From the IMG/VR virus record IMGVR_UViG_2721755662_000004: 64,000 nucleotides of DNA; one strand, 5' to 3'. This DNA comes from a virus. Taxonomy: Duplodnaviria > Heunggongvirae > Uroviricota > Caudoviricetes. Of the stretch, positions 43,621 to 45,937 are shown in pieces. The position numbers and the translations under genes were made by a program. Position 1 is the first letter of the stretch. Every line of letters begins with the position of its first letter. Below the pieces are notes generated by a model. It searched no databases. It saw only the letters and a program-made list of their open reading frames with translations, and had not been told where the DNA came from.

Positions 43621-44358
43621 ATGAAAAGTATCACAAAATTTCTTGTGTGCGCAACTCTGGGCTTAGGTGGATTAACTGCACAGGCACATGCTGCATCTGG
43701 TGATAGTACCGTATCCCTTGGATTCGCTCACCTTCAGCTATCCGGGCTGAATAATTTTGTTAAGGATTTAAGTCTTCATAACCTTGATACCTTTAACAAT
43801 TTTGTGAATGAAAACTATTTCAATTCACCTGGAGAATATGACGATGCGTTTGTCCGGGGCCATGATGGTAAAGAGAAAAGTCCCTTGGGAATGAACATTA
43901 AGTATCGTTATGAGATTACGGATGAGATCGGTGTTATAACCTCTTTTGCATGGGCTCGATCCATGACTAATGCACAGGCATTCATTGATGTTAAGCCTTC
44001 CGATCCATCACGAGAGGTAAAAAAACCGGCAGCTTCAGCGAGAACTGATATCAGGGCTAATTACTGGAGTCTACTATCCGGTCCTTCGTGGCGGTTTAAT
44101 GAATACCTCAGTGTGTATTCAATGGCAGGTGTTGCGGTTGCAAAAGTAACTTATGATTTGAAAGTTAACGACAATCTTAATGGTGGTGTAGGTAGTTTTT
44201 CTGAAAGTAACAGCACCAAAAAAACGTCTATTGCATGGTCTGTCGGCGCGCAATTTAACTTCAATGAAAGTGTTACTATGGACGTCACTTATGAAAGCTC
44301 AGGCTCTGGCGACTGGAAAACTGATGGTTTATTTGCAGGCATTGGCCTGAAATTCTGA
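43621..44358 (+). CDS. lom: Ail/Lom-family outer-membrane beta-barrel protein
   Basis: 245 aa; signal peptide ending AQA-HA; C-terminal aromatic residue (...GLKF); own terminator. Confidence 0.65.
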   Translation: MKSITKFLVCATLGLGGLTAQAHAASGDSTVSLGFAHLQLSGLNNFVKDLSLHNLDTFNNFVNENYFNSPGEYDDAFVRGHDGKEKSPLGMNIKYRYEITDEIGVITSFAWARSMTNAQAFIDVKPSDPSREVKKPAASARTDIRANYWSLLSGPSWRFNEYLSVYSMAGVAVAKVTYDLKVNDNLNGGVGSFSESNSTKKTSIAWSVGAQFNFNESVTMDVTYESSGSGDWKTDGLFAGIGLKF

Positions 44359-44382
44359 GTAATACCCGACAACATGTCATAA

Positions 44383-44406
44383 CCCGCTGTGATGGCGGGT
44401 TTTTTG
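44383..44406 (+). terminator. Intrinsic terminator after lom
   Basis: CCCGC-TGTGATG-GCGGG followed by TTTTTT. Confidence 0.7.
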
Positions 44407-44590
44407 TTGCCCGTGCAGGGCAAAAATCGTAGATTATGCGCGGGTGTCTTTCGGCTGATGGCTGGAAGGTGAACCTGAAGGCCTGATGTGGAAAGGCCCC
44501 GAGTCAAACATTTTGTTTAACCCGAGGCCCTAACCATCATACCTTAAGCAAGTAGAAGGTTAGCGCCTCTCCACTCAGGAGGCAAGCGCT

Positions 44591-44731
44591 ATGTCGCAAA
44601 AATCGCTCATCACCGTCACAATTTGTATGACGGTAATCTTCACCATCTGGATGTTACACGGCTCGTTGTGTGAGTTCCGGCTGAATTTGTGGGGAGCGGA
44701 GTTTGCGGCGTTCTTACAGTGTAAGCAGTAG
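44591..44731 (+). CDS. Divergent Hok/Gef-like small membrane toxin candidate
   Basis: 46 aa MSQKSLITVTICMTVIFTIWMLHGSLCEFRLNLWGAEFAAFLQCKQ; TM segment followed by SLCEF...EFAAF, as in Hok proteins. Confidence 0.5.
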   Translation: MSQKSLITVTICMTVIFTIWMLHGSLCEFRLNLWGAEFAAFLQCKQ

Positions 44732-44787
44732 GAAAACCGCGACGGGGACGAAAGTCCCCGTCAACTGGTTGCTGAGGTTCAGCCGAT

Positions 44788-45189
44788 ATGGCACCCGTTT
44801 CTGGTGAGAGAATGGACGACAAAATTCTCCGGTATATGCAGCGTGTTGTGAGAAATTCCCGCAACCCTGAATTTATGAATGAAGTTAAAGACGCCTGCCT
44901 TAAAAAGCAGGCGTTTTGTTTTGAGGCACCTGATGGCTTTCTGGTGCTGCGTTCTGTGCTCAGTGCTGATGGTATCCCTTATGTTTTGGTGTTGCTGGGC
45001 GTGTGTACGGGGAGTAACAGCGTTGAGCGTTATCTGCCGGAGGTGAAGACATTAACCCGTCTGGCTGGCGGACGCTGGGCTGAATTTCATACGGCAAGAC
45101 GGGGATTTATCCGGCTGGGAAAACGTCTGGGCTTTGAGCGAATGCCGGATGATGAGGATGGCTTCATGGTGTTCAGGATAGCGGTCTGA
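44788..45189 (+). CDS. Hypothetical protein
   Basis: 133-aa ORF (alternative start at 44812). Confidence 0.45.
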   Translation: MAPVSGERMDDKILRYMQRVVRNSRNPEFMNEVKDACLKKQAFCFEAPDGFLVLRSVLSADGIPYVLVLLGVCTGSNSVERYLPEVKTLTRLAGGRWAEFHTARRGFIRLGKRLGFERMPDDEDGFMVFRIAV

Positions 45190-45280: not shown

Positions 45281-45937
45281 ATGGGCGGAAAAAAAGGCGG
45301 TGGTGATACCAAAGTAAAACCAACAGCAGCGCAAATAGCACAGGAAGAAGTGGCCTGGAAAGGGTGGCAGGATTATCAAAAAATCCTCCGCCCGGCTGAA
45401 GATAACTTCATGGAAAAGGTCGATGACCTGAACAGTGAGCAGCAGTACGACAATATTGCTGGCACCACAAATCTGGGGTATCAGAAACAGTTTGGCGAAG
45501 CACGGAAGGAGCTGGCGGGTAATCTTGCTCAGTCCGGTGTTGACCCGTCCAGTGGTCGCTTTAACGCGGTAATGAATGCGAACCAGAGTGATCAGGTAAC
45601 CGGGCAGATTGACACAACCACACGGGGGCAGGTATCGCAGGCAGATAAGTATGTTGCCGGGCTACAGGATGTTGCTGCTCTCGGTTCTGGTCAAAAGGCG
45701 GATGCGTTACAGAGTTTTAACTCGCTGGCAGACAGCAGTCTGGCAAAAGCTAAATCGGACGCACAGGCTGCGTTTACGAAACAGCAGGGGCGAGCCTCTC
45801 TTGTTGGCGCTGGTTTGGGTGCGGTAGGTGCATATGCGATGTATAAGGCTGGCGGTAGCGGAGGAAGTGGCGGTGCTAAAACACCTGGCATCGGCGCTAA
45901 TGCCATTCAGCATCAGGCTCAGAACTGGAGACTGTGA
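45281..45937 (+). CDS. Hypothetical virion protein
   Basis: 218 aa; Gly-rich C-terminus. Confidence 0.5.
   Translation: MGGKKGGGDTKVKPTAAQIAQEEVAWKGWQDYQKILRPAEDNFMEKVDDLNSEQQYDNIAGTTNLGYQKQFGEARKELAGNLAQSGVDPSSGRFNAVMNANQSDQVTGQIDTTTRGQVSQADKYVAGLQDVAALGSGQKADALQSFNSLADSSLAKAKSDAQAAFTKQQGRASLVGAGLGAVGAYAMYKAGGSGGSGGAKTPGIGANAIQHQAQNWRL

What the first reader, a model, noticed from the sequence alone, without database searches (positions are those of the whole stretch)
44440..44760. Second, divergent Hok-like toxin gene between lom and the virion genes
A 46-aa ORF with a strong SD (AGGAGG) encodes a TM helix followed by SLCEF...EFAAF, the Hok-family pattern, but is shorter and more divergent than the canonical hok at 14646. 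A GACGGGGAC-GAAA-GTCCCCGTC hairpin follows the stop.
Basis: partly seen in the sequence, partly recalled or inferred. Interest (0 to 1): 0.5.

Follow-up and report, generated by a model that had tools for sequence, protein, structure and literature searches.

The report
Second Hok toxin module in Stx phage
The small gene after lom is a real Hok-family membrane toxin with its own regulatory RNA structure; this exact peptide is already catalogued and reported toxic, so the finding is correct but not new.

Summary
ORF 44591-44731 (+) encodes 46 aa, with AGGAGG 8 nt upstream and a hairpin at 44741-44762. It passes Pfam HOK_GEF (33.2 bits, cut-off 22) and PHROG 251.

The unit is larger than reported, about 44407-44796. 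It has its own promoter after the lom terminator. The 5' end (tac) pairs with the 3' end (fbi), and all five inner pairs show compensatory changes across 20 homologues. An alternative tac/ucb pairing also covaries. A conserved antisense promoter (TTGCCT-17-TAACCT) predicts a Sok-like RNA. The hairpin is a covarying mRNA 3' stem-loop, not a terminator.

The window is a short-tailed Stx phage. The hok at 14.6 kb is the known hokW/sokW type. This second locus shares no DNA similarity with it. It lies unannotated in the 933W and VT2-Sakai RefSeq records, yet RefSeq E. coli genomes call it "Hok/Gef family protein". The same clade sits next to ogr in P2-like prophages.

A 2026 preprint catalogues the identical peptide (72_1589) and reports it toxic on overexpression.

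One departure from the R1 paradigm stands out: no conserved mok leader ORF. Family: already known. Regulation: unstudied.

The parts
44407..44435 (+). Predicted hok promoter: -35 TTGCCC (44407-44412), 17-nt spacer, -10 TAGATT (44430-44435). It starts immediately after the lom terminator (44381-44406).
   Evidence: Read from the sequence. A -10-like hexamer (TAGATT, TAAATT, TAGAAT, TAGAGT or TACAGT) sits at a fixed 6-nt distance from the conserved GGGTG 5' end in 19 of 20 homologous modules. The lom terminator was found by the scan. No expression data.
44442..44796 (+). hok mRNA, minimal extent from the tac 5' end to the fbi 3' element. The true 3' end is unknown.
   Evidence: The Rfam hok-leader model aligns from 44442. 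The fold has MFE -155 kcal/mol and z = -7.4, with the ends paired. The homology block shared with P2-like prophages is 44422-44796. In the consensus structure 97.8% of cells are paired, against about 40% when partners are slid.
44442..44458 (+). tac element (5' end). It pairs with fbi in the full-length RNA and with ucb in the 3'-truncated RNA.
   Evidence: MFE partners are listed. Alignment columns 10-11 covary with fbi columns 365-366 and also with ucb columns 50-51.
44488..44500 (+). ucb-like box (GGAAAGGCCCC). It pairs with GAGGC in the full-length fold and with tac in the truncated fold.
   Evidence: Folds. The tac/ucb helix has 94.9% of cells paired and 2 pairs with changes on both sides.
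44488..44549 (-). Predicted Sok-like antisense RNA, about 60-65 nt. It has a 5' single-stranded tail of about 17 nt followed by a long GC-rich hairpin and then UUUCC. Both ends are approximate.
   Evidence: The start is inferred from the promoter position. The hairpin is predicted in 20 of 20 homologues despite sequence change. The base pair at columns 54/90 switches GC to AU in 7 sequences. Only 3 U follow the stem, so termination is uncertain. No expression data.
44524..44528 (+). Invariant GAGGC, at the position of the mok SD in R1. It switches partner from ucb (full-length) to GCCUC 44565-44569 (truncated).
   Evidence: Invariant in 20 of 20 sequences. The GAGGC/GCCUC helix is part of the Rfam consensus and is paired in 20 of 20.
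44557..44585 (-). Predicted sok promoter on the minus strand: -35 TTGCCT (44585-44580), 17-nt spacer, -10 TAACCT (44562-44557). The -35 overlaps the hok SD.
   Evidence: The -10 is TAACCT in 17 of 20 sequences and TATCCT in 3 of 20; the -35 is TTGCCT, TTGCTC, TTGACT or TTTACT, with near-constant spacing. The same TAACCT/GCCTCT context is what primer YO-421 mutates to make the sokW promoter-less construct of Takada 2021. The stringent consensus scan did not report it.
44564..44573 (+). GCGCCUCUCC: the anti-SD of hok in the full-length fold. Its GCCUC part is the dcb-like partner of GAGGC in the truncated fold.
   Evidence: MFE partners. The sequence block is nearly invariant. Pair counts for the SD hairpin were inconclusive because of a register shift in the alignment.
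44577..44582 (+). Shine-Dalgarno AGGAGG of hok, 8 nt before the ATG.
   Evidence: Homologues carry AAGGAG or GGAG at the same place.
44591..44731 (+). hok-family toxin CDS, 46 codons plus stop. One N-terminal transmembrane helix, and Cys27 and Cys44 in the C-terminal part.
   Evidence: The identical peptide is catalogued and was tested.
44741..44762 (+). It is most likely the protective terminal hairpin of the 3'-processed mRNA.
   Evidence: 5 of its 9 pairs show changes on both sides, and 98.9% of cells are paired. No U-run follows on the + strand. The role is inferred by analogy with the last stem-loop of Tr-hok in R1.
44779..44796 (+). fbi element (CAGCCGAUAUGGCACCC), complementary to tac.
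   Evidence: MFE partners. In helix columns 10-14/362-366 all 5 pairs show compensatory changes. Helix 2-7/370-375 is 100% paired.

Best explanation
This is a complete, apparently functional hok/sok-type type I toxin-antitoxin module, carried as an autonomous moron between lom and the next phage operon.

Proposed mechanism, step by step:
1. A promoter just after the lom terminator makes an mRNA of at least 355 nt.
2. In the full-length RNA the 5' tac element pairs with the 3' fbi element. The leader is closed, with ucb paired to GAGGC. The hok SD is held by CCUCUCC, and the AUG region pairs with the AEFAAF-coding stretch. The RNA is therefore inert (inferred).
3. Slow 3' trimming back to the 44741-44762 stem-loop removes fbi. 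tac then re-pairs with ucb and GAGGC re-pairs with GCCUC. This opens the antisense target and strips most of the anti-SD from the hok SD (inferred).
4. A short, presumably unstable antisense RNA is made from TTGCCT-17-TAACCT on the minus strand. It pairs with 44488-44549 and blocks or destroys that processed RNA (inferred).
5. When antisense supply stops, the 46-aa peptide is made. Triggers could be prophage loss, transcription shut-off by an infecting phage, or prophage induction. The peptide inserts into the inner membrane and kills or permeabilises the cell.

Shown here: family membership of the peptide, purifying selection, the RNA pairings by covariation, and conservation of both promoters. 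Reported elsewhere: toxicity of the identical peptide on overexpression. Inferred: transcription, processing, antisense action, direct mok-independent translation control, and the biological role.
For: Peptide family and selection:
- Pfam HOK_GEF scores 33.2 bits against a cut-off of 22. PHROG 251 scores 85.8 bits over the full length.
- The Hok-family invariant positions C12, T14, L26, C27, E28 and E37 are kept.
- The ORF is intact in 20 of 20 modules, with dN/dS 0-0.5. Against the 933W-type copy there are no non-synonymous changes at pS 0.28.

RNA structure:
- The Rfam hok-leader model hits 44442-44602 with E = 3e-6.
- The full-length fold has z = -7.4 and paired ends.
- RNAalifold and pair counts give 97.8% paired against about 40% when slid. 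The inner tac/fbi helix has 5 of 5 compensatory pairs, and the 3' hairpin 5 of 9.
- The truncated fold switches tac to ucb and GAGGC to GCCUC. The tac/ucb helix covaries at the same tac columns that covary with fbi.

Promoters and antisense RNA:
- The antisense promoter hexamers, their spacing and the Sok-like hairpin are conserved in 20 of 20.
- The same -10 context was mutated in sokW to abolish antitoxin activity.
- The hok -10 is conserved at a fixed distance from the 5' end in 19 of 20.

Toxicity and the canonical model:
- The identical peptide, 72_1589, was toxic in an arabinose-induced assay.
- The canonical tac/fbi/ucb/dcb model is described.
Against:
- The Rfam score is below the gathering threshold (35.1 against 59).
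- The stringent promoter scan did not call either promoter.
- The predicted Sok-like RNA has only 3 U after its hairpin.
- No intrinsic terminator follows fbi in this phage. The next one, at 44891-44922, lies inside the downstream ORF.
- No conserved mok ORF exists, although mok translation is mandatory for hok translation in R1. The way translation is switched on is therefore not explained by the paradigm.
- In the predicted ensemble the SD is only marginally more open in the truncated RNA (P unpaired 0.18 to 0.22).
- Chromosomal hok loci of K-12 and related strains were reported unable to mediate post-segregational killing.
Confidence: 0.8

Rival explanations
1. The locus is regulated exactly as in R1, through a Mok leader peptide that starts at a non-canonical or otherwise overlooked start codon after the conserved GAGG. 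Sok would act by blocking that leader's translation.
For: - GAGGC at the position of the R1 mok SD is invariant in 20 of 20 sequences and lies inside the antisense target.
- mok translation up to the hok SD is required in R1.
- The authors of the Hok catalogue note that identifying Mok is not trivial.
Against: - A scan for ATG, GTG or TTG ORFs starting in the leader found ORFs reaching the hok start in only 5 of 20 modules. Their starts and frames differ, and the window has none.
- An in-frame TAG (44561-44563, within the conserved GGTTAG) blocks an N-terminal extension. The other two frames close at 44545 and 44669 in the window.
- The 7-14 nt after GAGG show no conserved near-cognate start.
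- The invariance of GAGGC is already explained by its two alternative pairings.
Confidence: 0.15
2. The module is a decaying, silent relic, like several chromosomal hok loci. The peptide is toxic only when artificially overexpressed, and the locus does nothing in the phage.
For: - Chromosomal hokA, hokB and hokC loci did not mediate killing and were proposed to be inactive.
- Some copies are visibly damaged. L023 and L024 lack the tac 5' end.
- The overexpression assay used only the CDS with a constant SD.
Against: - Compensatory changes keep three separate helices.
- Both promoters keep their hexamers and spacing.
- dN/dS is below 1, with zero non-synonymous changes between Stx-phage lineages.
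- The module is kept in 196 phage records and in 1550 of 5426 complete E. coli genomes.
Confidence: 0.1
3. Same molecular module, different biological role. It is not an addiction or defence device but is released during prophage induction and helps lysis and phage release, as reported for hokW-sokW in Sp5.
For: - Takada 2021 found that MMC induction removes sokW RNA, HokW accumulates in the inner membrane, and phage yield halves without the locus.
- The second hok is present in that same phage. VT2-Sakai carries the identical ORF at 44701-44841.
Against: - The same clade sits at the ogr end of P2-like prophages and at the ends of lambdoid prophages. These have different lysis systems and the module lies next to att sites, the typical moron position for lysogen-expressed genes.
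- There is no data for this locus.
- R1 hok/sok is reported to exclude T4, so a defence role is equally open.
Confidence: 0.3
4. The hairpin at 44741-44762 is the transcription terminator of the small gene, and the RNA ends there.
For: It is a GC-rich 9-bp stem with a tetraloop just after the stop codon. The scan lists it as terminator-like, but only on the minus strand.
Against: - No U-run follows on the + strand (AACTGGTTGC).
- Conserved sequence continues 34 nt further, to the fbi element that pairs with the 5' end and covaries with it.
- In P2-like contexts a canonical terminator lies 25-40 nt after fbi.
Confidence: 0.05

Closest known systems
hok/sok (parB) of plasmid R1, the paradigm type I toxin-antitoxin system (Pfam PF01848; Rfam RF01794)
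   Same: - A small toxin with one transmembrane helix and the LCE and E..A.F motifs.
- A long structured mRNA with tac/fbi end pairing.
- A tac/ucb and SD-like/dcb refolding predicted after 3' truncation.
- A protective 3' stem-loop.
- A cis-antisense promoter overlapping the toxin's ribosome-binding region.

   Different: - No conserved mok reading frame.
- The toxin has its own strong SD, whose anti-SD overlaps the dcb-like box.
- The peptide is 46 aa rather than 52.
- The Rfam score is below the gathering threshold.
- The antisense hairpin has a short U-tail.
- No terminator follows fbi directly in this phage.
hokW/mokW/sokW of phage 933W and Sp5 (Takada et al. 2021, PMC8621323), present in this window at 14477-14890
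   Same: - Same phage and same toxin family.
- The same antisense -35 and -10 hexamers (TTGCCT-17-TAACCT).
- The same tac/fbi logic.
   Different: - A different locus. In 933W hokW lies at 58460-58734 near ant/ea22, whereas this one is in the unannotated lom-p67 gap at 45428-45856.
- 33% protein identity and no detectable DNA similarity.
- The predicted antisense RNAs share at most 6-8 nt of exact complementarity with the other mRNA, so cross-regulation is not expected.
- hokW has an in-frame mokW; this locus has a conserved in-frame stop instead.
Hok 60%-identity cluster 72 of Escalera-Maurer et al. (bioRxiv 10.1101/2025.08.07.668861): peptides 72_1589 and 72_1621
   Same: 72_1589 is identical to the window's peptide. 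72_1621 is the P2-prophage variant seen in L007 and L010. Both were cloned, and neither is among the three non-toxic homologues.
   Different: That study dealt only with the coding sequence. It explicitly left Sok, Mok and the mRNA structure unanalysed.
HokA of E. coli K-12 (NCBIfam NF007290)
   Same: It is the closest named chromosomal paralogue: 44% identity, a W in the helix, hard-coded Cys at both conserved positions, and a C-terminal FL.CK.
   Different: The score is far below the HokA equivalog cut-off (38.4 against 89 bits). The peptide is 4 residues shorter. It is phage-borne rather than at the cspA-glyS chromosomal site. hokA has an annotated in-frame mokA.

Membership tests
Hok/Gef toxin family (Pfam PF01848) | Sequence match to the family profile above the curated gathering score | tested here: met
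   33.2 bits against a cut-off of 22, E = 4e-8, residues 8-44 on profile positions 6-42 of 42. PHROG 251 scores 85.8 bits over the full length.
Hok/Gef toxin family (Pfam PF01848) | Peptide of about 50 aa with a single N-terminal hydrophobic helix and the family's conserved residues (C16, T18, L30, C31, E32, E41 in the logo numbering of the preprint) | tested here: met
   46 aa; hydropathy peaks at 2.25 over residues 5-20. C12, T14, L26, C27, E28 and E37 are invariant in the alignment with HokW-type and HokA. The conserved positions are listed.
Hok/Gef toxin family (Pfam PF01848) | Growth arrest or killing on expression | not testable with these tools
   Reported elsewhere. The identical peptide 72_1589 (plasmid LRP157) is in the table of tested homologues. 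Only 19_179, 60_1482 and 69_1540 were non-toxic. This is a preprint, and the assay was CDS-only overexpression.
hok/sok type I TA locus (Rfam RF01794 and the Gerdes model) | Match to the Rfam hok-leader/sok covariance model at the gathering score | tested here: not met
   35.1 bits against a gathering score of 59, although E = 3e-6 for the 601-nt search and the alignment covers the full model. The hokW-type copy scores 110.3 bits.
hok/sok type I TA locus (Rfam RF01794 and the Gerdes model) | tac/fbi pairing of the mRNA 5' and 3' ends | tested here: met
   The pairing is present in the MFE fold. There are 11 pairs, 98-100% paired in 20 sequences, and all 5 inner pairs change on both sides.
hok/sok type I TA locus (Rfam RF01794 and the Gerdes model) | Alternative fold after 3' truncation: tac/ucb and SD-like GAGG/dcb | tested here: met
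   The predicted MFE of 44442-44766 shows both switches. On the alignment 93.8% of cells are paired, and tac columns 10-11 covary with ucb columns 50-51. Processing itself was not tested.
hok/sok type I TA locus (Rfam RF01794 and the Gerdes model) | Cis-encoded antisense Sok RNA with its own promoter, complementary to the leader | tested here: inconclusive
   The hexamers, the 17-nt spacing and the hairpin are conserved in 20 of 20 sequences, and the -10 is homologous to the experimentally mutated sokW -10. However, the stringent scan gave no call, the U-tail is short, and there is no expression data.
hok/sok type I TA locus (Rfam RF01794 and the Gerdes model) | Overlapping mok leader ORF whose translation is coupled to hok | tested here: not met
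   No conserved ATG, GTG or TTG ORF runs from the leader into hok: 5 of 20 sequences have one, they are heterogeneous, and the window has none. There is a conserved in-frame TAG 30 nt upstream of the start.
HokA (NCBIfam NF007290, equivalog) | Score at or above the equivalog cut-off | tested here: not met
   38.4 bits against 89. The Hok subfamily model NF007279 gives 22.7 against 73.
hokW/sokW of 933W | Same locus or sequence as the annotated hokW | tested here: not met
   hokW is at 933W 58460-58615, whereas this ORF corresponds to 933W 45660-45800. Identity is 33%, and blastn finds no similarity between the two loci of the window.
Known anti-phage defence systems (PADLOC-DB 2.0) | Match to a defence-system protein model | tested here: not met
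   No hit for either Hok peptide of the window at E <= 1.

The most novel reading that the evidence does not exclude
This widespread phage-borne Hok clade (cluster 72) may be a natural mok-less variant of hok/sok. The dcb-like box doubles as the anti-SD of a strong hok SD. In that case 3' processing and the antisense RNA would control toxin translation directly, through a structural switch, rather than through a coupled leader peptide.

Because short-tailed Stx phages carry it together with the non-cross-reacting hokW/sokW, published single-deletion phenotypes in Sp5 may underestimate what Hok toxins do for Stx-phage lysis, stability or exclusion.
Probability: 0.4. Interest if true: 0.4.

Novelty: already known. 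Interest (0 to 1): 0.2.

Why it matters
As a gene call this adds little. RefSeq's pipeline already names the gene "Hok/Gef family protein", PHROGs holds it, and a 2026 preprint lists the identical peptide and found it toxic.

Three practical points follow.

1. The reference records of the two best-studied Stx2 phages, 933W and VT2-Sakai/Sp5, leave this gene unannotated. The only functional study of Hok in an Stx phage deleted hokW-sokW alone. That strain still carried a second, orthogonal Hok module, which could mask phenotypes in lysis timing, prophage stability or superinfection exclusion.

2. The regulatory RNA of this clade has not been described. The covariation data here give a testable map of tac, ucb, the dcb/anti-SD box, the 3' stem-loop, fbi and the sok promoter.

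3. The lack of a mok frame, in an otherwise complete hok architecture, offers a natural test of whether leader-peptide coupling is dispensable in this family.

Tried and rejected
- **Rfam at gathering threshold:** nothing at this locus; only the permissive search found the leader. Other weak Rfam hits in 44300-44900 (Trp_leader on the lom terminator, mir-675 and others) are chance.
- **Consensus promoter scan:** neither promoter was called at its stringency. The promoters were then argued from conservation.
- **Search for a mok ORF:** in frame, in the other two frames, and across 20 homologues. None is conserved.
- **Cross-regulation with the hokW/sokW-type locus of the same window:** rejected. 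There is no sequence similarity, and exact complementarity is at most 6-8 nt.
- **SD/anti-SD hairpin covariation:** inconclusive, because the SD is shifted by one position between lineages in the alignment.
- **Hairpin as terminator:** rejected.
- **PADLOC defence models:** no hit. **NCBIfam HokA and Hok models:** below cut-off.
- **Genome-contig scan:** only 7 loci, three of them labelled with implausible hosts (Xanthomonas, a Planococcaceae MAG, Vagococcus). These are most likely enterobacterial contamination. Diversity was obtained instead through the look-up of encoding contigs.
- **Literature searches:** hok + 933W + lom returned nothing. hok + P2-like + ogr returned nothing relevant.
- **Not run:** structure prediction, fold search and the large profile search. 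The family assignment was already secure.
Full report

Yes. The + strand carries an ORF at 44591-44731 encoding MSQKSLITVTICMTVIFTIWMLHGSLCEFRLNLWGAEFAAFLQCKQ, 46 aa. AGGAGG lies at 44577-44582, 8 nt before the ATG. Residues 5-22 are strongly hydrophobic, with a Kyte-Doolittle 15-residue mean up to 2.25. SLCEF and EFAAF follow.

The hairpin GACGGGGAC-GAAA-GTCCCCGTC is at 44741-44762. The gene upstream, 43621-44358, is an Ail/Lom outer-membrane protein.

**2. Is it a Hok?**

- Pfam HOK_GEF scores 33.2 bits against a curated cut-off of 22 (E = 4e-8).
- PHROG 251 ('MokW-like host killing') matches over the full length at 85.8 bits.
- The NCBIfam models are not reached: HokA equivalog 38.4 against 89 bits, Hok subfamily 22.7 against 73. 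The peptide therefore belongs to the family but to none of the named subfamilies.
- It is 33% identical to the 51-aa Hok at 14646 in the same window and 44% identical to K-12 HokA. The family's conserved C, T, LCE and E positions are kept.

**3. What is the window, and which hok is which?**

The 441-nt region is 92-100% identical to 196 phage records, nearly all of them Stx-converting short-tailed phages of the Sepvirinae. It is 100% identical to a prophage of E. coli FORC_069.

In 933W the annotated mokW/hokW/sokW lies at 58460-58734, next to ant/ea22. That corresponds to the window's Rfam sok hit at 14477-14651 (110 bits).

The locus studied here corresponds to the lom-to-p67 gap of 933W (45428-45856). 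That gap carries no annotation in the RefSeq records of 933W or of VT2-Sakai, the Sp5 phage. Both nevertheless contain the identical 46-aa ORF, at 933W 45660-45800 and VT2-Sakai 44701-44841.

Other records call the ORF 'Hok/Gef family protein', 'small toxic polypeptide', 'host toxic membrane protein' or 'MokW-like host killing'. RefSeq E. coli genomes annotate it routinely.

**4. Distribution**

A block equal to window 44422-44796 recurs at 81-84% identity. In all, 1550 of 5426 complete E. coli genomes have a match. The protein clade, always 46-47 aa, occurs in E. coli, Shigella, Salmonella, E. albertii and Citrobacter.

Outside Stx phages it sits in two kinds of place:
- immediately after ogr, at the right end of P2-like prophages;
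- at the end of lambdoid prophages.

It is sometimes present as a tandem pair. It is thus a mobile moron-type module that has been placed in several phage backbones.

**5. Anatomy of the RNA**

*Leader and full-length fold.* The Rfam model RF01794 is in practice a model of the hok mRNA leader on the hok strand. It aligns to 44442-44602 at 35.1 bits: below the gathering score of 59, but E = 3e-6 locally. Folding 44442-44800 gives -155 kcal/mol (z = -7.4). The 5' end (44442-44458) pairs with 44779-44796.

*Covariation.* I aligned 20 non-identical modules (A3). RNAalifold and explicit pair counting gave these results:
- 97.8% of cells are paired, against about 40% when partners are slid by 1-3 columns.
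- All five inner tac/fbi pairs change on both sides (for example CG to UA in 8 sequences, GC to CG in 8, AU to GC in 9).
- Five of the nine pairs of the post-stop hairpin change on both sides.
- The start-codon region pairs with the AEFAAF-coding region (13 pairs, 98.5% paired).

No U-run follows it on the + strand. By analogy with R1 it should be the terminal stem-loop that protects the 3'-processed mRNA.

*Truncated fold.* Folding the RNA truncated after that hairpin (44442-44766) reproduces the R1-type switch described:
- tac re-pairs with GGAAAGGCCCC, the ucb-like box at 44488-44500;
- the invariant GAGGC (44524-44528) moves from ucb to GCCUC (44565-44569).

The tac/ucb helix is 94.9% paired. 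It covaries at exactly the tac columns (10 and 11) that also covary with fbi. That is what a two-state switch predicts.

**6. Promoters and antisense RNA**

*hok promoter.* Directly after the lom terminator (44381-44406) lies TTGCCC-17-TAGATT (44407-44435), 6 nt before the conserved GGGTG 5' end. The -10 is conserved at that fixed distance in 19 of 20 modules.

*sok promoter.* On the minus strand, TTGCCT (44585-44580), 17 nt, TAACCT (44562-44557) is conserved. The -10 is TAACCT in 17 of 20 and TATCCT in 3 of 20. The hokW-type locus of this window has the same hexamers in the same place. Primer YO-421 of Takada et al. mutates precisely that AGGTTA/TAACCT element to make their 'pro-less' sokW construct, which lost antitoxin activity.

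*Predicted antisense RNA.* It runs from about 44549 to about 44488. It has a variable 5' tail of about 17 nt and a long hairpin that is predicted in all 20 homologues. Its U-tail is short, at 3 U.

None of this is expression evidence. It is conservation plus homology to a tested promoter.

**7. What differs from the paradigm**

In R1, translation of mok up to the hok SD is mandatory for hok translation, and Sok acts through mok. Here an in-frame TAG (44561-44563, inside the conserved GGTTAG) excludes an N-terminally extended Hok. The other two frames are closed in the window. A scan of 20 modules finds leader ORFs reaching hok in only five, with different starts and frames.

The GAGG that serves as the mok SD in R1 is invariant, but its two alternative pairings account for that. 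hok itself has a strong SD here. In the full-length fold that SD is paired with CCUCUCC, flanked by a GCGC/GCGC clamp. In the truncated fold GAGGC takes over GCCUC and leaves the SD only a 3-bp partner.

My inference is that this clade controls hok translation directly through the switch, and that the antisense RNA works by preventing the GAGGC/GCCUC pairing, by RNase III cleavage, or both. Support is modest:
- the predicted opening of the SD is small (P unpaired 0.18 to 0.22);
- the SD-hairpin pair count was inconclusive.

**8. Relationship to the other hok in the phage**

The two loci share no blastn-detectable similarity. The predicted antisense RNAs share at most 6-8 nt of exact complementarity with the non-cognate mRNA. 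They should act independently.

**9. Selection on the peptide**

The ORF is intact in every module examined. dN/dS against the window copy is 0-0.5. Between this phage and the 933W lineage there are only synonymous differences (pS 0.28, pN 0).

Stx2 phage 86 carries near-identical UTRs around a strongly diverged CDS allele (dS 1.36). This indicates mosaic exchange.

**10. What is already known**

- Fozo et al. 2010 counted 14 Hok/Gef genes in O157:H7 Sakai.
- Escalera-Maurer et al. (bioRxiv 10.1101/2025.08.07.668861, version of Jan 2026) catalogued 1264 Hok peptides.
  - Their Table S2, 'All experimentally tested Hok sequences', lists LRP157 = 72_1589 with exactly this peptide, and 72_1621 with the P2-prophage variant.
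  - 42 of the 45 tested were toxic, and the three exceptions are other peptides.
  - They report that hok is enriched in prophages and that only 3.5% of hok-carrying phages have two copies.
  - They state that Sok, Mok and mRNA structure were not analysed.
- Takada et al. 2021 characterised hokW-sokW in Sp5 and do not mention the second locus.

**11. Verdict**

The gene is a real second Hok toxin embedded in a complete hok-type regulatory RNA.

As a discovery it is already known: annotated, catalogued, and the peptide tested. This analysis adds a covariation-supported map of the module, evidence that it is orthogonal to hokW/sokW, and the absence of mok. The last is a modest but testable departure from the textbook mechanism.

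The biological role is open. Candidates are prophage addiction, exclusion of other phages, and help with lysis. I lean towards a lysogen-expressed stabilisation or exclusion moron, given its att-proximal position in several unrelated prophage types. I have no direct evidence for this.

Noticed in passing
window 44788-45189: The ORF downstream of the hok module is annotated from ATG 44788 in phage records, which overlaps the fbi element. The PHROG 610 profile aligns only from residue 9, so the real start is probably ATG 44812 (MDDKIL...). Function unknown; no Pfam hit.
   Followed up: partly
window 44891-44922: A strong terminator-like hairpin (ACGCCTGC-cttaaaaa-GCAGGCGT followed by TTTGTTTTG) lies inside that downstream ORF, about 100 nt after fbi. 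It may be where the hok transcript ends in this phage, or it may attenuate read-through into the downstream operon.
   Followed up: no
window 14477-14890: This is the hokW/mokW/sokW-type locus (Rfam sok 110 bits). Its tac (GGGTGCTTGAGG) is complementary to CCTCAACGCACCC at 14852-14864, and a canonical terminator follows at about 14870-14890. Its antisense promoter uses the same TTGCCT-17-TAACCT as the second locus.
   Followed up: partly
L015 (Stx2-converting phage 86) 1561-1914: The leader and 3' UTR are near-identical to the window, but the CDS allele is strongly diverged: MPQKTIIVSILCITILVIVWMIHNSHCEFRLNIMWSQFAAFLQCKQ (dS 1.36, SHCEF instead of SLCEF). This suggests recombinational swapping of the toxin-coding segment.
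   Followed up: partly
L027 1354-2200 and L028 1355-2200 (Salmonella): Two complete copies of the 46-aa hok module in tandem, about 490 nt apart. In L028 the peptides have diverged and a YafO-type toxin gene lies next door.
   Followed up: no
L023 / L024 about 1330-1710 (Salmonella, end of a lambdoid prophage): This copy has an intact ORF and fbi but has lost the tac 5' end, which is replaced by unrelated sequence. It is a candidate for a deregulated or dead copy.
   Followed up: no
L008, L009, L011 (genome-contig hits): Near-identical enterobacterial hok modules appear in assemblies labelled Xanthomonas pisi (an 857-bp contig, 100% identical to the Stx-phage peptide), a Planococcaceae MAG and Vagococcus sp. 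These are most likely contamination of those assemblies.
   Followed up: no
window 16516-16714, 18101-18299, 21441-21646, 60670-60759, 61553-61638: Other Rfam hits above the gathering score: two sets of c4-a1b1 / isrK / C4 antisense elements (an immI-type anti-repressor control region, duplicated), STnc100, and two copies of sRNA-Xcc1 on the minus strand.
   Followed up: no
NC_000924 (933W) 45428-45856; NC_000902 (VT2-Sakai) 44469-44897: Both reference Stx2 phage records leave this gap unannotated although it holds the intact 46-aa hok. The Sp5 hokW-sokW deletion strain used in the literature therefore still carries a second Hok module.
   Followed up: yes
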